From positions 10,106,001-10,170,000 of the forward strand of contig JAWMAR010000028.1 in the NCBI GenBank assembly GCA_036785375.1: DNA of 64,000 nt. Direction: 5' to 3'. This document shows, one piece after another, positions 5,748-44,000 of this stretch. Source of the DNA: Leucoraja ocellata (taxonomy: Eukaryota). The notes under the pieces are model-generated. The model saw only the letters and a list, made by a program, of their open reading frames with translations, made no database searches and was not told the DNA's origin. The first letter of the stretch is position 1. Every line of letters starts with the position of its first letter. Position numbers and translations under genes: made by a program.

Positions 5748-6810
5748 TCAGAATCAGAATAGTCAGAATCAGAATAGTATTTTATTTGCCAAGTATGTTT
5801 TGCAACACACGAGGAATTTCATTTGCCAAGTTGGTCCTACAAATAAAAAGCAACAGAACACCCAAAACCCATTTTAACATGAACATCCACCACAGTGACT
5901 CCGACACATTCCTCACTGTGATGGAAGTCGAAATAAAGTTCAAGTCTCTTCCCTTTGTTCTTCTTTGTTGCTCCTCTTGACATACAATACAATACAAATG
6001 TATTTGTCATTTGAACCTCGTTGAGGTCCAAATGAAATGTTGTTTCTGCAGTCATACATACAAAAATAAAAAGACCCAAGACACAACACAATTTACACAG
6101 ATCCATCACAGCGCATCTCCTCCTCGTTGTGATGGAAGGCAAAAACGTATCTCTCCCCTGCACTCCCCTCTTCCCCCCGATTGTCAGAGTCAAGCCCCCG
6201 GCGGGCGATGGTAATTGTCCCGCGGCCATTAAAGCCGCGCCGGGTGATGCAAGACCGGGTCTTGTTGTTGGAGCCCCCGGCGTGCGCTAGCAAAGTCCCG
6301 CGGCCATTCCAAGCCGCGCGGGGCGATAATGTAAGGCCCCGCTCAAGGTAATCTTCAACCCCGCAACTCGGGCGGGAGAAGTCGTTGTTGCAGAAGCCCC
6401 GAAAAGCGGTCTCCCAGCAGGGACCCGCGGGCTCCCGGTGTTCCTGTCTGTCAGACCTGCGGTTGGAGCCTCCGAATCTCCGGGGGTCGGGTCACAGCAG
6501 CGCTCCACCACCGCTCCTCCCGCTCCGGACTCGGCCAGCTCCGCGACGGTGAGTAGGTCCGCAGCTCCGCGACTGGAGCCCCAGGTCATTCCTGCTGGAG
6601 GCCGCTCCACGTTGCAGCCCAACGACAACGGAGACCCGACAAAGAAAAGGTTGGGTCTCCCGTGCAGGGGAAAGATTTTAAAGTTTCCCCCGCCCCCCAC
6701 ACACATACCCCGTCAAAAAAATAAACAAAAACTACATTAAAACGAGTCAGAAAATAATAAAAAGACAGACGGACTGCAGTGGCCGCTGCGATGTGAGTCG
6801 TACCGCCCAC
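5748..6810 (-). mobile_element. GC-rich non-autonomous retroposon, two stacked 3' ends
   Basis: Two related tails (5748-5980 and 5981-6170) share the atccaccacag...gtgatggaag block and end in short tandem tails; CpG-rich body to ~6810; a related plus-strand copy lies at 54560-55340. Confidence 0.5.
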
Positions 6811-11139: not shown

Positions 11140-12710
11140 GTTCGGACAATTAGTTTGGAACTATCACAGCATGGCTTGGGGACAGCTCCATCCAAGACCG
11201 CAAGAAATAGCAGAGAAATGTGGACGCAGCCCAGACCATCACACAAATTGACTCCGTTTATACCTCACGCTGCCTCGGCAAGGACAGCAGCATAATCTTC
11301 TCCCATCTCCCACCGGGGCAAAAGGTATAGAAGTGTGAAAACGCACACCTCCAGATTCAGGGAGAGTTTCTTCCCAGCTGTTATCAGGCAACTGAAACAT
11401 CCTACCACAACCAGAGAGCAGTGCTGAACTACTATCTCCCTCATTGGAGACCCTTGGACTATCTTTGATTGGACTTTACTGGCTCTATCGTGCACTAAAC
11501 TTTATTCACGTTATTCCCTTTATCATGTATCTGTACTCTGTGAATGGCTCAATTGTAATCATTCAATTTGAGTATAGGAGCAGGGAGGTTCTACTGCGGT
11601 TGTACAGGGTCTTGGTGAGACCACACCTGGAGTATTGCGTACAGTTTTGGTCTCCAAATCTGAGGAAGGACATTATTGCCATAGAGGGAGTGCAGAGAAG
11701 GTTCACCAGACTGATTCCTGGGATGTCAGGACTGTCTTATGAAGAAAGACTGGATAGACTTGGTTTATACTCTCTAGAATTTAGGAGATTGAGAGGGGAT
11801 CTTATAGAAACTTACAAAATTCTTAAGGGGTTGGACAGGCTAGATGCAGGAAGATTGCTCCCGATGCAGGAAGATGCTCTCCTCTCCCCCTCTCCTCTCT
11901 CCCCTCTCCTCTCCTCCTCCCCCCCTCCACCCCTCTCCTCTCCCCCCTCTCCTCTCCCCCCTCTCTTTCCCCCCTCTCTCCTCCCCCCTCTCTCCTCCCC
12001 CTCTCTCCTCCCCTCTCTCTCCCCCCTCTCTCCTCCCCCCTCTCTCCTCCCCCTCTCTCTCTCTCTCTCTCTCTCGCTCTCCCCCCTCCCCTCCATTAGT
12101 GTGAGTGTGGGAGGGGGGGGGTAGTAGTGTGTGACGCTGCATGCCGCCTCCCCCCCCCCACAACCACACGTTGGGGGAACAGACCCAACGGGTCTGCACT
12201 TGGTCTAGTAATCTCTAGAATTTAGGAGATTGAGAGGGGATCTTATAGAAACTTACAAAATTCTTAAGAGGTTGGACAGGCTAGATGCAGGAAGATTGTT
12301 CCCGATGTTGGGGAAGTCCAGGACAAGGGGTCACAGCGTGAGGATGTGGGAAATCCTTTAAACCGAGATGAGAAAATCTTTTTACACACAGACAGTGGTG
12401 AATCTCTGGAACTCTCTGCCGCAGAGGGTAGTCGAGGCCAGTTCATTGGCTATATTTAAGAGGGAGTTAGATGTGGCCCTTGTGGCTAAGGGGATCAGAG
12501 GGTATGGAGAGAAGGCAGGTACGGGATACTGAGTTGGATGATCAGCCATGATCATATTGAATGGCGGTGCAGGCTCGAAGGGCCGAATGGCCTACTCCTG
12601 CACCTAATTTCTATGATTCTATGTTTCATTGTCTTTCCGCTGACTGGTTAGCACGCAACAAAACATTTCCATTGTTCCTCGGTACACGTGCCAATTGTCT
12701 AAACTAAACA
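11140..12710 (+). mobile_element. Rex1/Babar 3' fragment (11140-11560 and 12627-12710) interrupted by a CR1 fragment (~11561-12626)
   Basis: Host tail ...attgtaatc | attgtctttccgctgactgg...; CR1 peptide [19 protein letters not shown] in ORF 11444..12124. Confidence 0.75.
11876..12208 (+). mobile_element. Non-autonomous Helitron 3' portion with CT-rich tract
   Basis: Polypyrimidine tract 11876-12093, then hairpin CAGACCC-AAC-GGGTCTG (12180-12196) and CTAG (12205-12208) followed by T. Confidence 0.6.
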
Positions 12711-15903: not shown

Positions 15904-16280
15904 ACTTCTTCTGCCCGAAAAGTGACCCATTTCTTTTCTCCAGAGATCATGGCCGTCCGAAGGGGGGTGCGTTGGGTGCGACCGCACCCCCCTTTTTTCC
16001 CCACTAAGAAAAAATCACACAAAAACAGAAGAAGAAAAAATCGGGGGAAAAAAGAAAGACAAAAACGGGGGAAAAAGAAAGACAAAATCGGGGAACAAAA
16101 TCAACGTTCCCACTTTGGATACGGCCAATTCTCTGTTCTCCGTCGCCGGGTAAGAGTGGGTGAATCTGAACCCAACGGCTGTAATCCCAACACCAGACGC
16201 CGCTGCGGTGGAGCCCGCTGCGCTCGCCTCCCCCCGCCACCGGGGCCCAAGCCATCTTCCCCCCACACCACCCTGATGAC

Positions 16281-16512
16281 CCCCGCTGGGTCCAGCCACT
16301 CCCGCTGGGCCCACACCCCCGCTGGGCCCACACCACCCCCGCTGGGCCCATGCCACCCCCGCTGGGCGCACACCACTCCCGCTGGGCCCACGCCACCCTG
16401 CTGGGCTCATGCCACTCCCACTGGGCCCATGCCACCCCCGCTGGGCCCACTTCACCCCCGCTGGGCCCACGCCACCCCCGCTGGACCCATGCCACCCCGC
16501 TGGGCCCACGCC
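16281..16512. repeat. GC-rich minisatellite, ~19-20-bp unit (CCACCCCCGCTGGGCCCAYG), ~12 copies
   Basis: Tandem units read directly; source of several spurious Pro/Gly-rich ORFs. Confidence 0.9.
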
Positions 16513-16924
16513 ACCTTCGTCCCCCCCTCCCCCCGCAAGAATAAGGGGTGATGTGAGAGGGGGAGAGAGAGAGGGGAAGGGAGGGGAGAGAGATGGGGGA
16601 TGGGAGAGGGAAAGGGGGATTATCTTTAGTGAGATTGCAAAATTAAGGTAGGTTTTAGAGCTATTATATTTCTCCTCTTATGAATAATATTAAACAATAT
16701 CAAATAATATCAAACAATTGGAACTGCTTTCTTTTCCTTGATAACAAAACTGAAAAATATGAATTCCATAGTTTGTGACATAAATACACATTTTTATGGG
16801 ATCATTATATACAGATGTAACATTTCAATTTCGAGATCGGGGGGTGGTGGTGGGGCGGGGGGGGGGGGGGGGGGGGGGGGAAATATGCGTCAAGCCGATA
16901 GCCTAATCGTTAAAAGAGTTAAAA

Positions 16925-17940
16925 GATAGCCAATTGATAAAGAGCTGAGAAGAGAATCAGAGGCTGCCAAGGAAAGGTACTCTGAGAAGTTGAGGAGCAA
17001 GTTCTCAGCTAATGACTCTTCTTCAGTTTGGAAGGGCATGCAAGAAATCACCAGCTATAAGAGGAAAGCCCCCTGAATGAGTTTTACTGCAGGTTTGAAA
17101 ATCAGAAACGTAACCCTGGTACCCCTTCCCCAACAATCACAGCCAGACCCCAGTCTGCAAAGAATGGACCCTGCATCCTCTCCTTCCCATTCACCACTTC
17201 ACACCTACTTAAGGTAAGACTCCAGTATGAAAAGAGTGGACCCTTTCCCACCCCAACTAACACTTCACACCCACTCACAGCCTGACCTCAGTCTGCAAAG
17301 ATTGGGCCCTTCTAACACCCACCCCACTCCAATCACCACTTCACACCCAATTACTCATTTTTAACCAGTCCCTGCCTGCTTTCAAAGTCTCCACTATTGT
17401 CCCTGTACCCAAAAAGGTAAGGATTACAGGTCATAATGACTACAGGCTTGTCGCACTGACCTCTGTAGTCATGAAGACCGTTGAAAGGCTTGTGCTGGCC
17501 AAGCTGAAAAATATCACAATCCCTCTGCTGGACCCTCTGCATTTTGCATATTGTGGATGATGGAGTCAATCTGGGCCTGCACTTCATCCTCCAGCACCAA
17601 GACCGCCAGGGAACCTATGCGAGGATTTGTTTTATTGATTTTAGCTCTGCATTCAACACCATTGTGCCAGAGCTACCACGCTCCAAACGTTCTGAGTCGA
17701 CTGTGCCTGAACCCCTCAGTCGGTGGATCACCAGCTTTCTGACAGACAGGAAGCAGCATGTGAGGTGGGAAAGCATATCTTCGGACCCGCAAACACTCAG
17801 CATAGTGGCACCGCAAGATGCATACTCTCCCCTCTCCTCTCCTCTCGCCACACCAATGACTGCACCTCCACAGACACCTCTGTCAAGCTTCTCAAGTTTG
17901 CGGATGACACAACCCTGATTGGACTGATCCAGGATGGGGA
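16925..17940 (+). mobile_element. Rex1/Babar-type LINE RT fragment (degenerate)
   Basis: TYARICFIDFSSAFNTIVP...WITSFLTDRKQHVR and [16 protein letters not shown] (FADD catalytic motif); frameshifted. Confidence 0.85.
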
Positions 17941-26584: not shown

Positions 26585-27368
26585 ATGATACCATTAATTA
26601 TCAGAGGGGACTGTGTGGAGAGGGTGGCGGATTTCCGCTTCCTGGGAATCCATATTGAGGAGGACCTGACGTGGAGCGTGAACACCTCTGCGCTGCTGAA
26701 AAAGGTCCAGCAGAGACTGCACTTCCTGAGGGTGCTCAGGAAGAATAACATCACTCAGAGACTGCTGCTGTCCTTTTATCGGTGCTCCATTGAGAGCATC
26801 CTAACATACTGTGTATGCGTGTGGTACACCAGCTGCACAGCAGCTCAGAGGAAAGCGCTCCAGAGGGCCATTGACAACGCCCAGAGGATTGTCGGCTGCC
26901 CTCTCCTTACCTTGGAGGACTTACACAGTTCCCGCTGCATTAAAAAATCCCTGAGTATTATAAAGGACATTTCCCACCCCGGACACTCCCTGTTTGAACT
27001 GTTGCCGTCAGGCAGACGGTACAGATCTACAAGGACAAGGACAAACAGACTTAAAAACAGTTTTTACCCCACTGCTATAAAGGCACTAAATGTAGCTGCC
27101 GGAACGCAGGAACGCAGGGGCGATACATACTAAGGGACTGTGGTACACTGTGAAATCGACAGAAGGATGGAGGGTTGGGTGTTTATGCATGCTATTTTCA
27201 TGATATTTATTTTAGTTGTTTATCTTTTTTTAATATTTTACCTTGTATGTATCGTTAGCTTTTAGAAATGTTTGAATGGTGCACTGACTGGCTGACATTT
27301 GTAAATTTCGTTGTACATGGTTCATGTTACAATGACAATAAAGAAACTATTCTAACTATTCTATTCTA
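26585..27368 (+). mobile_element. Young Rex1/Babar LINE 3' portion with open 182-aa C-terminal frame
   Basis: VERVADFRFLGIHIEEDLTWSVNT...QQRLHFLRVLRK...FYRCSIESILTYC...HPGHSLFELLPSGRRYRS...NSFYPTAIK; AATAAA plus (CTATT)n tail. Confidence 0.9.
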
Positions 27369-29130: not shown

Positions 29131-32100
29131 CAGAGGTGTAGTCTACGTGATACGCAGGTATATGCCGTATACCCACTAAGAAAGCTCCAGCATTTCCGTA
29201 TGCCCACTTAGAAATGCGCAATGACACGTATCAACTTCGATAGTGACAGAAGTTCTGTTTATTTTATGAATGAAAGTATGACAGTTCTGTCACAGAACCA
29301 TCATACTTTCATTCATAAATTCAACCTGTGCGCTGTGTCTCTGTCAGAGTCGCACTTTTCCTTGTCGGAAGTTGGAAAGTCCCGAGTTCCGAGTACAATG
29401 GAACGCAGCATTATAATAGCCATACAGAGGCTTCCGTCCATGGCCCGTGCCCGTGACCTTGGTGACCGCCCGTGACCTAGACCTGACGTCACGTCACCTA
29501 GACGACAGCGATATCAACTCAGTCGGCACCGAGGTGATGTCCAGCGGCTCAACAGTAAATATGAAGCAGAAGCAACAAACTACCCTTCCCCATTTAAAAA
29601 AAAACAAACAAGCCTGCTGCTGCCTCGGACGACACTCCAGCAGTCACTAGGACGTTAGATGAAGAAGAGGGAACTACAGCGGAGCCTGATGCCAGCAGTG
29701 TATCGGGTAAGTGAAAGTCGTATACAAGTGAACTTTAGCAGATATTAGACTACTAGCTACTAGCTTATAAGAGATTTCCCAAACTGAATGAATACCACAC
29801 ATATATTCACTAAACGGCCTTGCTAGCTCAATCTTGTTGTAGTAAAGTAGTAAATAACGTAGTTATTACACATTTTACTGTGAGTGTGTGTGTGCTGAAT
29901 ATCTCCTTGTTCCTTCTAGATGATAACTCCTGGCCAGCCCTATGGACTGAGAGTCAGGCTAGGGAGTTTAAAAGCAAGCATTCTTGGTTAGAATGGCAGG
30001 ACAGAAAGTTAGGTAAATATCAGCCAACTTGTAAAGCTGCTATAAACACATGAAGTCAACTTTATGCAAATGAGAGTATAGCTGGTTTATTTTCATCTTA
30101 AAGATACATTAATTTCACTTTTATACAATTAAATTATAATGATATTGTCACAGTGAAGCTTATTTACAGTTCATTCAATTATTTTGAATAGATTCTTATC
30201 CAGTTCAGAAGGTGTTATTGCTAATATAGATTCAAAAAAGACTACTTGTATGATGTTAATTAGTCATGTTTTTGTTTACTTCCAGGTTGTGCTATTTGCA
30301 GCTCAACAAAATCTACTGGCGTCTTAACAGAGAAAAGAATTTCCATATCTGAGGAGTGGGCGATGTTTAAGATCCTGTCATCAGGCTCAAGCAGACCAAC
30401 AGCCCTGGCCTCCTTGAGAAACAAGATCAGACAGCATGGGATGTCCAGGGCACACGAAATAGCTCAGGAGCTCACTGAAAAGGGTGGACAGGATTTACTT
30501 GGGAATCTTGTGAGAGCTGTGTCACACACTGTGTTAGCTGAGACAAATACTGTATTCAGAACAGCATATTATCTTTCCAAGATGAACCGAACTTTCTCTG
30601 ACCATGACGATCTCATTGAGCTTCAGGAAAAAAATGGTGTCAACATGGGCACAAGTCTGCACTCAAGGTTCAGTTCAACAAAAGTTGTGGAACACATAGC
30701 AAAAAAGATGGAGACAAAAATAGTTGACAGCATTGTGTCATCTTCAAGCAAGCTGTCTGTTCTCATTGATGAGGCAACTTCTCTCAGCCATAAATCAGCC
30801 ATGATTGTCAATGTGAAGGCCTCTTTAGATGGAGCTACTCCTGAATTTGTTTTTTTGGACCTGGTGGAGCTGGAAAGCCAGAGGACAGAGTCTATAGAGG
30901 AAGCTCTATTAAACTGTTTGGACACTGCAGGCTTTAGTGAAGAGTGGCTTCAAAACAACTGGATCTCATTTGTTTCTGATGGAGCCAGTGTTATGTTAGG
31001 CAAAAACTCTGGTGTGGCAACCAGGCTGACTGCAAGGTACCCTAACCTCTTCACATGGCACTGTATGAACCACTGTCTAGAACTGGCTGTAAATGATGCT
31101 GTGGATGAGGTTCAGGCAGTCAACCACTTCAAAGTTTTCATGGACAAACTCCACAATCTCTACAGTCAGTCCAATAAAAATTCACGGGAACTTATAGAAG
31201 CAGCACAAGAAGTGGGCTCACAAGTCCTGAAGATTGGCAGAGTTTTAAACACCCGATGGGTTGCCAGCAGTTTCTGTTCTGTAAAGGCTGTGTGGAGGTC
31301 ATACGAAGCACTTAACAGACACTTTGAGAATGCTGCAGGAGATCAAACAGGAAACGGCAAAGAGAGGCAAACCTACAGAGGCCTGGCACGTCGTATGCAA
31401 AGCAAGGAATTTCTTTGTGACCTTGGACATGTATGATGCACTATCTGAACTTTCAAACCTGTCCCAGCAATTACAGGCCCATTCAATCACACTTTTAAGA
31501 GCAGAACAGCTGCTGAAGCGCACCATCCGAGTGCTGGCATCATTTAAAGATTCTCCAGGAGAGAAATTGGAGGAAGCATTGAAAGCACAGGCTTTGGGAC
31601 AGTTTGGATCAGTGTCCCTGGAGTCAAATGCTAAGCTCATGCCGATCAATACAAAGCAGTTCCTACAAAGTCTGATCAACAACATGGAGAAGCGGCTCTC
31701 ATTTAAGGATGAAATTCTTCATGATCTCAGCATTGTGGATTCAAGCACCTGGCCATCAATACCTGGCCATCAACACCTGGCATGGTGAGTCACAGGTAAA
31801 ACGACTGTGCAGGCGATTCAATCTTTGTCAAGAACAAGCTGTCAATGGAATGAGAGATTTCATTGAGCACCCAGAGAGTGAAACTGAATGCATCAAACCA
31901 CTCATCCACTGCATGCAGACCATCCCTTGCAGCACTGCAGAGTGTGAAAGGTGCTTCAGTCTGATGAATATTGTGTACACAGACCAAAGATCTAGAATGT
32001 TGTTGTCTAGTGTCAGCAATTTGATGATGATCAGCATCAATAAGCCTTTTTGAGCCAAGCAAATATGTATCAACATGGTTAGGAAGCCATCGCTCTGCCA

Positions 32101-37975: not shown

Positions 37976-39004
37976 TCACCGGGACACTGCGTGTATCGCC
38001 GGCTCAGCCTCGACCTCCGCCCTGGACAGGTCGATGCCGAGAACGGTCCGCAGGGACTTCCTGAACTCCTGGTTCTTGCGGGTGTACACGTAGGGACTGA
38101 GGACGAAGAGCAGCGCGAAGGGCAGCCAGGCGAGGTTGCAGAGCAGAGCGGGCACCGGCTCAACCAGCCCGCAGAGCAACACCCACACCAAGGGCTCGGT
38201 GCTCAGCAAGAAGGCGCTCAGCACGAAGGAGACGTACAGGCGCAGTTTCTTGTCCTTCCTGGCGCACGGGTAGGACAGGTTGTTGCCGTGGAAGTTGAGC
38301 ACGCTGACCCTGTTGACGCTGACCTGCACCCGGCGCAGTATTTTGTAGTAGGCGTACAGCAGGACGGCGGTGTGGGCGAGGATGGAAGCGGCAGTGACGG
38401 CCGCAGCGTAGGGGCACAGTGTCAGGGAGCAGGAGCAGGAGCAGCCACCACGGGAGGAGGCGGCGGCGAGACCCGGGTAGAGCAGGCAAGCGCCGGGTCG
38501 GGGACGCCCCAGAGCCGCTGCCATCAGCCAGGGCAGCAGCAGCAGCACGGCAGCCGCTAGCCAGGAGCTGGCGATCATTGCAGCCGCGTTCCTCCTGCGG
38601 TACAGGTCCCGGTAGGCGGCCGGAGCCTTGGTGATCAACGCGTAGCGGTTCAGGGCGATGAGCGAGTGCGAGAAGAGAGAGGCGAGCAAGGCAAGGAGCA
38701 GCAGCGCGGCGGCCAGCGAGCGCCAAGAGGCCGGGCCAGCAGCTGCCCGAGGCGGCCGAGCCAACGCCAATGCCACCGCCTCCTGGGGCATCCACAGGCC
38801 GCACACCAGCAGGTCGGCGGCGCACACGTTGACGATGAAGGCGTTGCTGGCGCTGCGGAGTTTGCGGACCGAGTACACCAGGTAGATGACCAGGAGGTTC
38901 CCCGAGCTCCCGGCCACCGCCAGCAAGGCGTAGGTGACAGCCCAGGAGATGTTCTCGCCCAGCGCTCCGTTGCAACAGGTGGAAGAGTTGGAAGAGTTGC
39001 CCAT
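37976..39004 (-). CDS. GPR88: G protein-coupled receptor 88 (orphan class A GPCR), 342 aa, single coding exon
   Basis: Starts MGNSSNSS. Diagnostic blocks VIYLVYSVRKLRSASNAFIVNVCAADLLVCGLWMPQEAV, SHSLIALNRYALITKAPAAY, RRVQVSVNRVSVLNFH, FLLSTEPLVWV and YTRKNQEFRKSLR match recalled human GPR88. Lies downstream of CDC14A on the same strand. Confidence 0.95.
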   Translation of the reverse strand: MGNSSNSSTCCNGALGENISWAVTYALLAVAGSSGNLLVIYLVYSVRKLRSASNAFIVNVCAADLLVCGLWMPQEAVALALARPPRAAAGPASWRSLAAALLLLALLASLFSHSLIALNRYALITKAPAAYRDLYRRRNAAAMIASSWLAAAVLLLLPWLMAAALGRPRPGACLLYPGLAAASSRGGCSCSCSLTLCPYAAAVTAASILAHTAVLLYAYYKILRRVQVSVNRVSVLNFHGNNLSYPCARKDKKLRLYVSFVLSAFLLSTEPLVWVLLCGLVEPVPALLCNLAWLPFALLFVLSPYVYTRKNQEFRKSLRTVLGIDLSRAEVEAEPAIHAVSR

Positions 39005-39018
39005 TCTGCAGACCCCGT

Positions 39019-40407
39019 GTCCCGGTATCTGGGCACTGGAGGTGGCGGTGTCTGGGCACTGGAGGTCCCGGTGTCTGGGGACTGGAGGTCCCGGTGTCTG
39101 GGCACTGGAGGTCCCGGTGTCTGGGCACTGGAGGTCCCGGTGTTTGGGGACTGGAGGTCCCGGTGTCTGGGCACTGGAGGTCCCGGTGTCTGGGCACTGG
39201 AGGTCCCGGTGTCTGGGCACTGGAGGTCCCGGTGTCTGGGGACTGGAGGTCCCGGTGTCTGGGCACTGGAGGTCCCGGTGTCTGGGCACTGGAGGTCCCG
39301 GTGTCTGGGCACTGGCGGTCCCGGTGTCTGGGCACTGGAGGTGGCGGTGTCTGGGCACTGGAGGTCCCGGTGTCTGGGCACTGGAGGTCCCGGTGTCTGG
39401 GCACTGGAGGTCCCGGTGTCTGGGCACTGGAGGTCCCGGTGTCTGGGCACTGGAGGTCCCGGTATCTGGGCACTGGAGGTCCCGGTGTCTGGGCACTGGA
39501 GGTCCAGGTGTTTGGGGACTGGAGGTCCCGGTGTCTGGGCACTGGAGGTCCCGGTGTCTGGACACTGGAGGTCCCGGTGTCTGGGGACTGGAGGTCGCGG
39601 TGTCTGGGCACTGGAGGTCCCGGTGTCTGGGCACTGGAGGTCCCGGTGTCTGGGCACTGGAGGTCCCGGTGTCTGGGGACTGGAGGTCGCGGTGTCTGGG
39701 CACTGGAGGTCCCGGTGTCTGGGCACTGGAGGTCCCGGTGTCTGGGCACTGGAGGTGGCGGTGTCTGGGGACTGGAGGTCCCGGTGTCTGGGCACTGGAG
39801 GTCCCGGTGTCTGGGGACTGGAGGTCCCGGTGTCTGGGCACTGGAGGTCGCGGTGTCTGGGGACTGGAGGTCCCGGTATCTGGGGACTGGAGGTCGCGGT
39901 GTCTGGGCACTGGAGGTCCCGGTGTCTGGGCACTGGAGGTGGCGGTGTCTGGGGACTGGAGGTCCCGGTGTCTGGGCACTGGAGGTCCCGGTGTCTGGGG
40001 ACTGGAGGTCCCGGTGTCTGGGCACTGGAGGTCGCGGTGTCTGGGCACTGGAGGTCCCGGTGTCTGGGCACTGGAGGTCGCGGTGTCTGGGCACTGGAGG
40101 TCCCGGTATCTGGGCACTGGAGGTCCCGGTGTCTGGGCACTGGAGGTGGCGGTGTCTGGGGACTGGAGGTCGCGGTGTCTGGGGACTGGAGGTCCCGGTA
40201 TCTGGGGACTGGAGGTCGCGGTGTCTGGGCACTGGAGGTCCCGGTGTCTGGGCACTGGAGGTCGCGGTGTCTGGGCACTGGAGGTCCCGGTGTCTGGGGA
40301 CTGGAGGTCCCGGTGTCTGGGCACTGGAGGTCCCGGTGTCTGGGCACTGGAGGTCCCGGTGTCTGGGCACTGGAGGTCCCGGCGTCTGGGCACTGGAGGT
40401 CCCGGTG
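39019..40407. repeat. 23-bp minisatellite (TCTGGGCACTGGAGGTCCCGGTG)n, ~60 copies
   Basis: 1389 bp of tandem units with only point variants; translation period is 23 aa (three units). Confidence 0.97.
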
Positions 40408-40569
40408 CACCGGCCGCCACTCTCAGCCTTGCAGATCAGGTGGACAGGGTGCCAGCCAGGCGTGTGTGCGCACTCGCCCTCCACTCCACCCCAGGGGCGC
40501 TCAGATTACAAACACACACACACACACTTCGCATCGTCTGCGGCAGCAACAGCCCCCGCCCTATCACTA

Positions 40570-41005
40570 GTGCCAAAGCTACCGTCACTCACAGTCCCAA
40601 TGCCCATGATATTGAAAGTCCCAATGTTCCTGTCACCCTGTCCCAGTGCCTCTGACACTGGCTGTTCCAGTGTCTCCATCACTGATAGTCCAGTGCCTTA
40701 ACATTCCACAGTGCCCCTCTCACTCAAAGATCCACTGTCCCTCTCACTCTGTCCCAATGCCCCTCACACTCCCAGTCCCAAAGCCCCCGTCACTAATAGT
40801 CCCAGTGCTCTGTTACTCACGGTCCCAATGCCCCTCTCACTCGGTCCCAGGGCCATTTCACTCGAAAACCCAGTCCCCCTGACACTGACAGTCCCTTTAT
40901 CCCATTCACTAAACTTCCCAGTGCTCCATCACTACGCTCGATTGCACCTATCACCAACATGCTCGCTCACAAATATTCCCAGTGCCTTGTCATTACGTGT
41001 CCCAA
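40570..41005. repeat. Degenerate low-complexity repeat (TCCCARTGCCC / CTCTCACTC motifs)
   Basis: Recurrent gtcccaatgccc, tcccagtgc and cctctcactc words. Confidence 0.55.
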
Positions 41006-44000
41006 CCACATCATCAGTTGTACCCTGTCGGTGAAAAACAGGACATATCTATTCCAGCCATTTCCCAGTAATTGGTTTGCTCTCAGTTATCAACAAAGCA
41101 AGGAAGGGTGTCAGAGAGAATACTACCACAGGCGAACTCGCCAACAACCTGCTCATTACAGTCCAGCATGTGTTGACCAGGACCACCCTGCTCCAGAACC
41201 CATCACACCATTGTTCCAAATTGTACCACCCTAGCTCAATTCAGAGCTTAGGTGAGAATGGCTTCCTTGTCAAAAATCATTGCATTTAACTGAGTGTAGC
41301 ATCAACGAGTCCTGGTAAATCAATGTGCACAAGAGAAAAAAAGTTGGGATTACATCATTAGATGATGCGATGTCTGTTCGGGAATCTGGAAACGACAGGG
41401 GAGAAGCTGTTCCTGAACCTGATGGCACAAGCTGGTTATCTTTTGTAACTTCTGCCCAATATAATAGAGAAGAGGGGAGTGGCTGGCCCTTGATTTAATG
41501 GGCGGGTTTGCCAAAGCAGCTTGAAGTGTAGACGGAGTTGATGGGGGGAGGGGAAGGGAGGGAAGGGGGATGGACACATGTCCACAATCCTCTGCAAATG
41601 TTGTGTAGTCTTGGGCAGATCAGTTGCCAACCCAAGTTGTGTTGCATCCAAGGACGCTCTCTCTGGTGCATCTCTAGAATTTGCTAGGAATTATTGTGAC
41701 ATGTCGAGGTTACTTATATTGGTACCCTGTGTGTGACTGAATTCTCTCACCACTGCAATAACATGGTAGCTTAATTGATATGCTCAAATGATGAGAGTGA
41801 CCTTAAATTCATCACTTTCAAACAAAGCAGAGAATCTACCATCACTAAACATTTTATGTAAAATCAACATTTATCAATCTTGCAATCTATCAAAAATAAT
41901 CTTCTATTATTTTTGATAGGAGAGCGATCCTGTTCTTATAAATTGCATCTATTTGTTTACAGAAGTTAACAGTTGTCCAGACACCTGGAGTTCTAGTTAA
42001 CTTTCGAAAAATTAGTTTTAGTTCAATGGTTTTGATAAGTAACTGGCAAAGATTGCAGCTGACCAGCAAAAACGTGACATGTTGGTATTGGATTCATGAA
42101 GACATCACCCACCAGATCTGCATTGTAGTCCGTTAGTTTGGGCTTTGTGTGCTCAAAGCAGAAGTTTGGGATCAAGAGCCCTCCCAAGCTTTTGAATGCG
42201 ACATTAGGTTTTTATTGGAGCAGTTGAACTTTTCCTGAAAAAAAAAGCTGCAGCTACAATGAGTTATCACAGTGTTCTGGAGAGTTGTGCTTCCTGCGAT
42301 ATTGAACGTGTTCTTAGAACTGAAGCCTTTAATATTTGTGCAGAATTCGATAGGGGTCTCCGACAATGAAGATGCTTCTTGTGACATGATTGGTAAGATG
42401 CTGTGACATGTGCTTCCTGCAGAAGATGCAAACCTCGGTGTCACCACATTGTGACCTTCTCCTCAGCTCGTGATAGTAGTAAGGGGTTCCCCTGAACGTG
42501 CGATTAGCCTTATTCCATGTCTCATTTCGTCAAATACTTGGTGGGTGTCATTAAAGGTGAGTTTCTCTTTGTTGATCATACCATCCTCCATAGAGTGGGT
42601 CAGGGTTCACACCTGAAAGAGAAGCAATCAAATCACAACAAGCAAAACAATAGAGATCAGACAGATGGTGGTCATCTCTACTACATGGATCTACACGACC
42701 CGTCGAACGAGATGTGGAAAGGCTCATTGAGAAGTGGGGGCTCAAGCTTGTTTCACACCATATATAATTTTCAAATTATTGAAAAGTTCAGAAAATTAAA
42801 TTGTCACCATCGGCTGCTGTTCTGCAATGTAAAGATAAACATATACAACAGAGACGGCTTAAACTATGACAGCATAACCCAACATTAAGACCATTGGAGT
42901 CATACACGGATAAGGACACCTTTACATTAAATATTAACCCACAGAAACATGGGATTTCAATCATTCTGCATATCACGTTTTGAGAAATCGCTTCCATATT
43001 TCACCTATTACTCTTTTTTTCCTCCCTTAGATACAAAATAAATGAAGAAACGAGTTTGAAGTAAAATAAAACATATTTCAAGTTATAGAAAAGTTATGAT
43101 CAACTCACTGGTAACTAACCATGTGCTGGGAAAGATGAAAATTCTGATGCTTAAGATTCTGGAAATCCTGAAATAAAATCTGATGGAAGGGCATTGGTCT
43201 AAACATTAGCGGATGCTCACTCTACAGATGTGGAACCGATTTGCTAACCATAATCTTACAAGCTAACTGTAGCTTAACTGTAACATAGTTAAGTTACATG
43301 TTATAAAAAAAAGCTATTTCTGCGTTATTTAGGGGCTTTGTTTTTTTAAGTTGCATTGAGATTGATTATATTTTAAAACTTTATAATTTTTTATTATTTT
43401 TATGTTTCTGTATGTTAGAGTCTTGAAAAAAACGTTGAAAACTTTGCTTTCTATTAAAAGTATTTCCACTGAACCATTGCAGGTGAGGCTTTCCTAGCGC
43501 ACCCATGTCACGCCATCATACAAGGCTCAAGGCCTTGCTCCTCTGCTCCAGGAAGTCTTGACTGGTGAGGTGGGCCTCCTTTACCATAAGGAAGTAGATT
43601 TGAGAGATAGGATGATAGAGGTAGCCAGAACAAGCCGTCTCCTCTCAAAAAAATCCATTGGGAGCAAAGTGGGTCAAGCATGTGTAGAATCCATTATTAT
43701 GTTAGGTGACAAAAGAGAAAGTGAGGAACATTTGATAATAGCTTATTGAGACAAGAATCCTTTGCAGATTCTACTATCAGATTTGAAGGAAGCAGGCACT
43801 GGATTTATAAAACATGATTAGTGGGGTATTTGTCTCATCTGGTAGTGGGTTCTGAAATGACTGGCGAAGTCAAAGTGGGATCCACAGGATCCACCATAAC
43901 TGAAACATGAAGTAGGTAGACCGATAGTTTGTGGGGTGGTGACTTCTTGCCTCATTCACACCTGATATACAAACCTGAGGTTTCGACCTGAAACGTCATC

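What the first reader, a model, noticed from the sequence alone, without database searches (positions are those of the whole stretch)
39005..40440. Stop-free 23-bp minisatellite abutting the GPR88 start codon, in frame with the receptor
Seen: ~60 copies of a 23-bp unit end 14 bp upstream of the GPR88 ATG. The array has no stop in any of six frames and no ATG on the coding strand. Because 23 is not divisible by 3, all three coding-strand frames give the same 23-aa peptide (QCPDTGTSSAQTPGPPVPRHRDL), so copy-number change alters only which frame joins the receptor. One frame runs 472 codons from a GTG at 40420 into GPR88; that frame is closed by a TGA near 40438. Inference, three options: (a) a 1.4-kb C-rich VNTR 5'UTR affecting translation; (b) a Pro/Thr/Ser/Cys-rich extracellular extension via a non-AUG start or an upstream spliced exon; (c) an intronic array removed using the tctgcag|aATG acceptor. 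Annotation pipelines may predict a false 800-aa GPCR here.
Basis: partly seen in the sequence, partly recalled or inferred. Interest (0 to 1): 0.7.

Follow-up and report, generated by a model that had tools for sequence, protein, structure and literature searches.

The report
Length-variable repeat before skate GPR88
In a skate, a 23-letter DNA repeat just ahead of the brain receptor gene GPR88 has 60 copies in one assembled version of the gene and about 14 in the other; it is likely ordinary non-coding DNA in the gene's leader, and its lack of stop codons is what chance often gives such repeats.

Summary
The open frames are not informative. 42% of shuffled units of this composition are stop-free on both strands, three frames giving one peptide is arithmetic for any unit not divisible by 3, and variants show no avoidance of stops (P=0.44). 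New here: the genome's second, probably allelic, copy has only ~14 units, so this is a variable repeat, and a second skate carries it too. All 16 aligned orthologues begin at this Met. The extension has no signal peptide, the repeat RNA folds worse than shuffles, and the proposed acceptor lacks a branch motif. RNA reads were too few to place the array. Best reading: a non-coding VNTR, probably in the 5' leader. One point favours translation: both versions keep the upstream GTG in frame with the receptor (chance 1 in 3, and it depends on one 22-bp unit that may be an assembly error). Ordinary kind of feature; low interest.

The parts
39019..40407 (-). 23-bp minisatellite, 60.4 copies, 69% G+C, C-rich on the coding strand; ~14 copies in the second version on G000:C569 (L001 ~6258-6591)
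37976..39004 (-). GPR88 coding sequence, one uninterrupted ORF, 342 aa; ATG has A at -3 and G at +4
39005..39018 (-). 14-nt spacer between array and ATG; holds the proposed acceptor (CAG ending at 39006), which is weak
40408..40570 (-). Unique 163-bp segment 5' of the array, 64% G+C, 10 CpG (o/e 0.65, against 0.38 for 40571-41000), with a GC-box-like run near 40552-40560; candidate promoter/start of the leader (inferred; motif label recalled)
40418..40420 (-). GTG in the receptor frame (A at -3, G at +4); in frame in both versions; a CTG lies two codons earlier at 40426
40436..40534 (-). ATG at 40534 to TGA at 40438-40436: 32-codon upstream ORF in the receptor frame (window version). In the C569 version the TGA is absent, the ATG is out of frame and opens 437 codons through the array into the receptor gene, and a new 3-codon uORF sits at the TGA site. 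Relevant only if transcription starts 5' of these codons (untested).
40512..40527 (-). (GT)8 microsatellite; one unit shorter in the C569 version and in organism B; sets the frame of the ATG at 40534

Best explanation
This is a locus-specific 23-bp tandem repeat, 60 copies in one assembled version and about 14 in the other, directly 5' of skate GPR88; it is likely non-coding and most likely lies in the gene's 5' leader or start region, so the receptor would still begin at its conserved ATG. Shown: the array, its length difference, its presence in a second skate, the conserved Met. Inferred: the array grew and shrank by ordinary minisatellite duplication; transcription starts in the CpG-rich segment just 5' of it or within it; the sense RNA has no AUG and weak structure, so ribosomes would scan through to the ATG at 39004; any effect is a quantitative, allele-dependent change in GPR88 level. 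The open frames are a by-product of a T-poor unit.
For: Stop-freeness is ordinary: 42% of shuffles are open on both strands; 11 distinct substitutions seen in both versions, none makes a coding-strand stop, expected P=0.44; 2 of 8 minisatellites in 284 kb of this genome are open in all six frames (this one included) and 6 of 8 in at least three. A turbot 'hypothetical protein' with 23-aa period is explained by one 23-nt unit read in three frames in 64 of 204 windows, 0 of 1000 shuffles. Length varies fourfold between C28 and C569, which are collinear at 93-98% over ~55 kb; C569 is a gapped scaffold. 16 of 16 aligned orthologues from skates to a bird start at this Met with an M-x-N start. The extension's best 11-residue hydropathy is 0.6 against 1.96 in the receptor's first 60 residues. 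The repeat RNA folds worse than 200 of 200 shuffles (z +3.2); -29 to -43 kcal/mol per 150 nt against -112 for (CGG)50. High G+C and CpG content end near 40570. The 39005 acceptor lacks a pyrimidine tract and branch motif.
Against: No RNA read spans the array-ATG junction (0 in 3 RNA runs), so 'leader' is not shown. L. erinacea has two RefSeq accessions for the same 340-aa protein, which suggests transcript variants differing in UTR structure and so possibly an intron; mammalian GPR88 has coding sequence in exon 2 (PMC3960057, PMC4987659, passages). Both versions keep the GTG in the receptor frame (1416 and 357 nt). Database starts are pipeline predictions that default to Met, so their agreement is partly circular. 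A 1.5-kb leader would be long for a vertebrate mRNA (recalled). The baseline of 8 arrays is small and not randomly sampled.
Confidence: 0.6

Rival explanations
1. The array lies in a 5'UTR intron: a non-coding first exon upstream is spliced to 39005 or to a CAG in the last units, and the repeat never reaches the mRNA.
For: Mammalian GPR88 has two exons with coding sequence in exon 2 (PMC3960057, PMC4987659, passages; that the intron is in the 5'UTR is recalled). Two RefSeq accessions for one L. erinacea protein. CAG directly before the ATG; candidate donors at 40592 (7 of 9 consensus) and 40527 (6 of 9) (consensus recalled).
Against: 7 of 16 pyrimidines and 2 T at the acceptor; no T-N-A in the whole window array; 119 AGs in array plus spacer. 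No splice joint or loose end at 39005, but depth there was 0. The A-G-A before ATG is equally explained as start-codon context.
Confidence: 0.25
2. A near-cognate start (GTG 40420 or CTG 40426) makes a longer GPR88 with a Pro/Thr/Ser-rich repeat N-terminus whose length follows the allele, like the poly-Arg extension on FMRP.
For: GTG has A-3/G+4 and is in frame in 2 of 2 versions although they differ by 46 units; a 22-nt unit in the short version keeps the frame. No change at the GTG is listed for organism B (65 rows of that table were not shown).
Against: Chance of the shared frame is 1 in 3, and the missing base is in a CC run, a typical assembly error site (not checked against reads). Two of every three copy-number changes break the frame. 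No signal peptide, which long-tailed GPCRs usually have (PMC3894963, passages). Weak RNA structure, unlike CGG repeats (PMC9410890, passages). No extended GPR88: 15 hits of 327-361 aa, 0 hits at 600-2000 aa (weak), the 13 best of 1237 hits align from residue 31 or earlier of their own sequence. No Pfam family for the extension, 0 hits.
Confidence: 0.07
3. The 60-copy length, or the difference between the two versions, is an assembly error, or C569 is a recent duplicate rather than the other allele.
For: Repeats are error-prone in assembly; no long reads were examined. The two versions differ at about 0.9% of aligned bases in the longest block and at 8 of 1029 coding bases.
Against: The long array has 14 unit variants with repeated blocks of 4-5 units; the short array has variants of its own. 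C569 stays collinear with C28 across a 200-N gap, and other GPCR hits also come in pairs, e.g. C50/C1714, C36/C924, C33/C1378. Organism B contigs enter the array from both sides.
Confidence: 0.08

Closest known systems
Human TYMS 28-bp 5'UTR VNTR (2R/3R; PMC7368113, passages read)
   Same: GC-rich unit not divisible by 3, just 5' of the start codon, variable copy number; reported to change translational efficiency 3-4-fold.
   Different: 2-3 copies against 14-60 here; TYMS repeat is known to be in the 5'UTR with a measured effect, neither shown here.
Human TRIB3 promoter 33-bp VNTR (PMC7425993, abstract and outline read)
   Same: Single-locus, lineage-specific repeat at a gene's 5' end with allelic length variation.
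   Different: The TRIB3 unit carries a defined C/EBP-ATF site and a shown expression effect; no site or effect is shown here.
FMR1 5'UTR CGG repeat with near-cognate (RAN) initiation (PMC9410890, passages read)
   Same: AUG-free, stop-free GC-rich repeat upstream of a neuronal gene, near-cognate codons 5' of it, one frame continuous with the protein.
   Different: CGG repeats fold very stably and keep the frame with any copy number; this repeat folds worse than its shuffles and changes frame with each copy; product would be a membrane protein without a signal peptide.
Minisatellite-derived predicted proteins, e.g. Scophthalmus maximus KAF0026990.1
   Same: 23-aa periodic sequence explained by a 23-nt unit read through three frames; similar composition (42% identity to the extension).
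   Different: Unrelated locus, not joined to a GPCR; that it is an annotation artefact is inferred.

Membership tests
GPR88 orthologue | Best match to GPR88 among class A GPCRs | tested here: met
   E 1.5e-56 to human GPR88, next family 1e-11; 7tm_1; 99% to L. erinacea GPR88
GPR88 orthologue | CDC14A upstream on the same strand | tested here: met
   CDC14-type exons on C28 at 10.189-10.223 Mb, - strand; a turtle gene model fuses CDC14A to GPR88; human order recalled
Minisatellite VNTR | Head-to-tail units of about 10-100 bp at one locus | tested here: met
   exact 28-nt pattern gives 60 matches in G000, 54 on C28 and 6 on C569, none elsewhere
Minisatellite VNTR | Copy number differs between alleles | tested here: met
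   60 vs ~14 units on C28 and C569; allelism inferred from collinearity, no population data
5'UTR VNTR (TYMS type) | Array retained in the mature mRNA | tested here: inconclusive
   3 read pairs on the coding sequence, none at the junction; one read enters the array from the 5' side on the opposite read strand
5'UTR VNTR (TYMS type) | Copy number changes expression | not testable with these tools
   needs reporters or allele-specific expression
Coding VNTR | Unit length a multiple of 3, or selection against frame breaks and stops | tested here: not met
   unit 23 nt; no stop avoidance, P=0.44; shared frame in 2 of 2 versions is 1 in 3 by chance
GPCR with long extracellular N-domain | N-terminal signal peptide | tested here: not met
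   maximum 11-residue hydropathy 0.6 in 477 residues; simple window test, no dedicated predictor
RAN-translated repeat (FMR1 type) | Near-cognate codon 5' of the repeat | tested here: met
   CTG 40426, GTG 40420
RAN-translated repeat (FMR1 type) | Stable repeat RNA structure | tested here: not met
   z +3.2, z +2.3 for the short version with its 5' segment; G4Hunter -0.62 on the coding strand; predictions only
RAN-translated repeat (FMR1 type) | Repeat peptide detected | not testable with these tools
   needs ribosome profiling or mass spectrometry
Intron with 3' splice site at 39005 | Pyrimidine tract and branch point | tested here: not met
   7 of 16 pyrimidines, no T-N-A in the window array; simple consensus counts, weak sites exist
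Intron with 3' splice site at 39005 | Spliced reads joining an upstream exon to 39005 | tested here: inconclusive
   no depth at the site; no RNA joints in 40385-43900

The most novel reading that the evidence does not exclude
The repeat is in the GPR88 leader and works as a phase switch on translation: repeat length and a neighbouring GT microsatellite decide whether upstream starts give a harmless 32-codon uORF (long version), a 437-codon ORF that overruns and mutes the receptor start (short version), or, from the GTG kept in frame in both versions, a receptor with a 119- to 472-residue repeat N-terminus. That would be a natural, allele-dependent counterpart of FMR1 repeat translation on a GPCR.
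Probability: 0.08. Interest if true: 0.7.

Novelty: new member of a known kind. Interest (0 to 1): 0.22.

Why it matters
As most likely read, it matters little: a polymorphic marker and possible expression variant at a skate brain receptor, and a caution that open frames in T-poor minisatellites are not evidence of coding. If the array proves exonic and translated, it would be a rare natural case of repeat-phase control of a receptor's start and a testable non-mammalian model of near-cognate initiation at repeats.

Tried and rejected
Selection against stops: not seen. Dispersed satellite family: exact unit only at the two GPR88 copies (exact pattern, diverged copies would be missed). Repeat peptide as a known domain: 0 Pfam families, 0 hits at E 1e-10; repeat-part hits are 20-42% matches to unrelated repeat proteins; of 4 looked up, three have a 23-aa period and the fourth is the turtle CDC14A-GPR88 model. 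False 800-aa model: neither the 342-aa nor the 819-aa sequence is in the collection; none. Acceptor at ~40428: its AG is changed in organism B. RNA: no RNA holder listed by the index. 7 of 24 listed runs were laid; only 5-25% of each raw-read run was read; tissues unknown; stretches held only one terminal unit each, so the array interior was not examined. The 69 reads of X9 and 13 of 15 of X16 are under 90% alike over ~35 nt and come from another gene. X6 (kind unknown) was patchy and uninformative. Protein atlas gave no answer. The bacterial promoter scan is irrelevant to this genome. Earlier-findings look-ups for relatives, sequence, nearby and words found nothing. Literature: no listed paper held 'gpr88' in searches with shark/skate terms (0 of 15; 0 of 40) or VNTR terms (0 of 10); these needed only two terms, so they are weak evidence of absence. 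One search gave nothing on GPR88. No supplements were read. No structure prediction was run.

Full report
Observation. The array is real and as described: period 23, 60.4 copies, 39019-40407, every in-register unit 23 nt long, 14 variants. It ends 14 nt before an ATG at 39004 on the - strand that opens a 342-aa class A GPCR. The receptor is GPR88 and is 99% and 97% identical to the little skate and thorny skate proteins, so the genome is inferred to be a skate's. CDC14-type exons lie 43-77 kb upstream on the same strand. All six frames are open across the array, the receptor frame for 477 codons back to a TGA at 40438.

Is the open frame more than chance? No. The coding strand of the array is 9% T. 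Of 200,000 shuffles of the unit, 67% have no stop on the coding strand and 42% none on either. Once a unit is stop-free, a homogeneous array is too, and a unit not divisible by 3 gives the same peptide in all three frames by arithmetic. Only 5 of 69 single-base changes make a coding-strand stop; 11 distinct changes occur in the two versions, so seeing no stop has P=0.44. In 284 kb of this genome (the window, 4 flanking, 4 arbitrary and 14 GPCR-centred 10-kb stretches; period 7-100, at least 5 copies and 120 bp), 2 of 8 arrays, this one included, are open in six frames and 6 of 8 in at least three. The same effect appears elsewhere: a turbot hypothetical protein hit has a 23-aa period that one 23-nt unit read in three frames explains in 64 of 204 windows, against 0 of 1000 shuffles.

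A second version. The genome holds GPR88 twice, on C28 (the window) and C569. C569 is collinear with C28 at 93-98% over about 55 kb, is a scaffold with 200-N gaps, and rejoins C28 175 kb further on across such a gap; other GPCR hits also come in pairs. It is most likely the uncollapsed other haplotype. Its array has about 14 units, one of them 22 nt. The exact unit occurs nowhere else in the genome. Contigs of another organism (B, 27 differences over the 1.1-kb coding stretch) align into the terminal unit from both sides and break 16 and 31 letters further in, as expected if it has the array too; its length there is unknown. So this is a single-locus VNTR shared by at least two skates.

Translation of the array. 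Against: 16 of 16 aligned orthologues start at this Met (partly circular, since pipelines choose Met); the ATG has strong context; the extension has no hydrophobic segment (0.6 against 1.96), whereas long-tailed GPCRs usually carry a signal peptide (PMC3894963, passages); no extended GPR88 was found, the one long hit being a turtle CDC14A-GPR88 gene model; two of three copy-number changes break the frame; the repeat RNA is less structured than 200 of 200 shuffles, unlike the CGG repeats that support near-cognate initiation at FMR1 (PMC9410890, passages). For: the GTG at 40420 has A-3/G+4 and is in frame in both versions (1416 and 357 nt), the short one only because of its 22-nt unit. That is a 1-in-3 coincidence and the missing base may be an assembly error, but it is the one result that points the other way.

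Upstream starts differ between versions. An ATG at 40534 gives a 32-codon uORF ending at the TGA in the window version. In C569 the GT repeat is 2 nt shorter and the TGA is gone, so the same ATG opens 437 codons out of frame through the array and over the receptor start, and a 3-codon uORF appears. Organism B has -2 and +5 indels there and no listed change at the TGA (not all rows shown). This instability looks like unconstrained sequence; it would matter only if transcription starts 5' of 40534.

Leader or intron. The acceptor at 39005 has 7 of 16 pyrimidines, no T-N-A branch motif anywhere in the window array, and 119 AGs upstream of it in the array and spacer. The acceptor near 40428 is lost in organism B. 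G+C and CpG stay high from the coding sequence to about 40570 and then fall, which suggests a start region directly 5' of the array. On the other side, mammalian GPR88 has coding sequence in exon 2 (PMC3960057, PMC4987659, passages) and L. erinacea has two accessions for one protein. RNA did not decide: of three RNA runs laid on the coding sequence, X13 gave 4 reads and X16 2 reads at 99% or more, none at the junction. Upstream, X14 and X15 gave scattered reads in unique DNA whose first mates all lie on the - strand, opposite to the X13 pairs of the same study; one runs into the array; no RNA joint was listed. If the libraries are of the usual stranded kind this is low-level antisense or divergent transcription; orientation was not verified.

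Verdict. A length-variable, most likely non-coding minisatellite at the 5' end of skate GPR88, probably in the leader (0.6), possibly intronic (0.25), unlikely to be translated into the receptor (0.07). It works like the TYMS and TRIB3 5' VNTRs at most (PMC7368113 passages; PMC7425993 abstract); no expression effect is shown. Two earlier AI notes on this genome describe other gene-proximal minisatellites; I did not check them. New member of a known kind; interest 0.22.

Noticed in passing
window 38949-40655 (+): A + strand ATG inside the antisense of the receptor's N-terminus opens a 568-codon ORF through the whole array; probably a by-product, but a gene finder could call it.
   Followed up: no
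window 40385-43900: Sparse RNA reads of runs X14 and X15 in unique DNA all have the first mate on the - strand, opposite to the GPR88 coding-region pairs of X13; possible antisense or divergent transcript, one read entering the array.
   Followed up: partly
window 40590-40955: Degenerate ~23-24 bp repeats 5' of the array (69% self-similarity; TRF 40638-40698) whose units resemble the main unit's GGGCACTGG word in the opposite orientation; copy number also differs in C569.
   Followed up: no
window 40460-40527 (-): The GT microsatellite and a downstream CA-rich run are predicted to pair into a long hairpin in the putative leader (seen in the C569 version).
   Followed up: no
window 39019-40407: Each consensus unit contains CCAGACA, the core of the Smad CAGA box (label recalled, from no call); 9 of 53 unit changes fall in it or its CAGACA core region, so no clear protection; untested.
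   Followed up: no
window 11877-12089 and 16279-16515: Two other GC-rich minisatellites open in 6 and 5 of 6 frames.
   Followed up: partly
G000:C569 vs C28: C569 skips C28:10156061-10331398 (about 175 kb, including the CDC14-type exons) at a 200-N scaffold gap; the GPR88 coding sequences differ at 8 bases and one residue, L37F in TM1.
   Followed up: partly
window 38426 region; GPR88 residues ~186-192: A Cys-Ser dipeptide repeat in the second extracellular loop is one unit longer here than in L. erinacea, A. radiata and organism B, and absent in sharks and other rays.
   Followed up: no
window 17508-17915, 26585-27130, 30264-31433: Transposon-like remnants: weak RVT_1, ALKBH8_N-type motif, weak DUF659.
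   Followed up: no
P0030, P0023: Database gene models that fuse CDC14A and GPR88 sequence (turtle, named; a second unnamed one), probably annotation chimeras of neighbouring genes.
   Followed up: no
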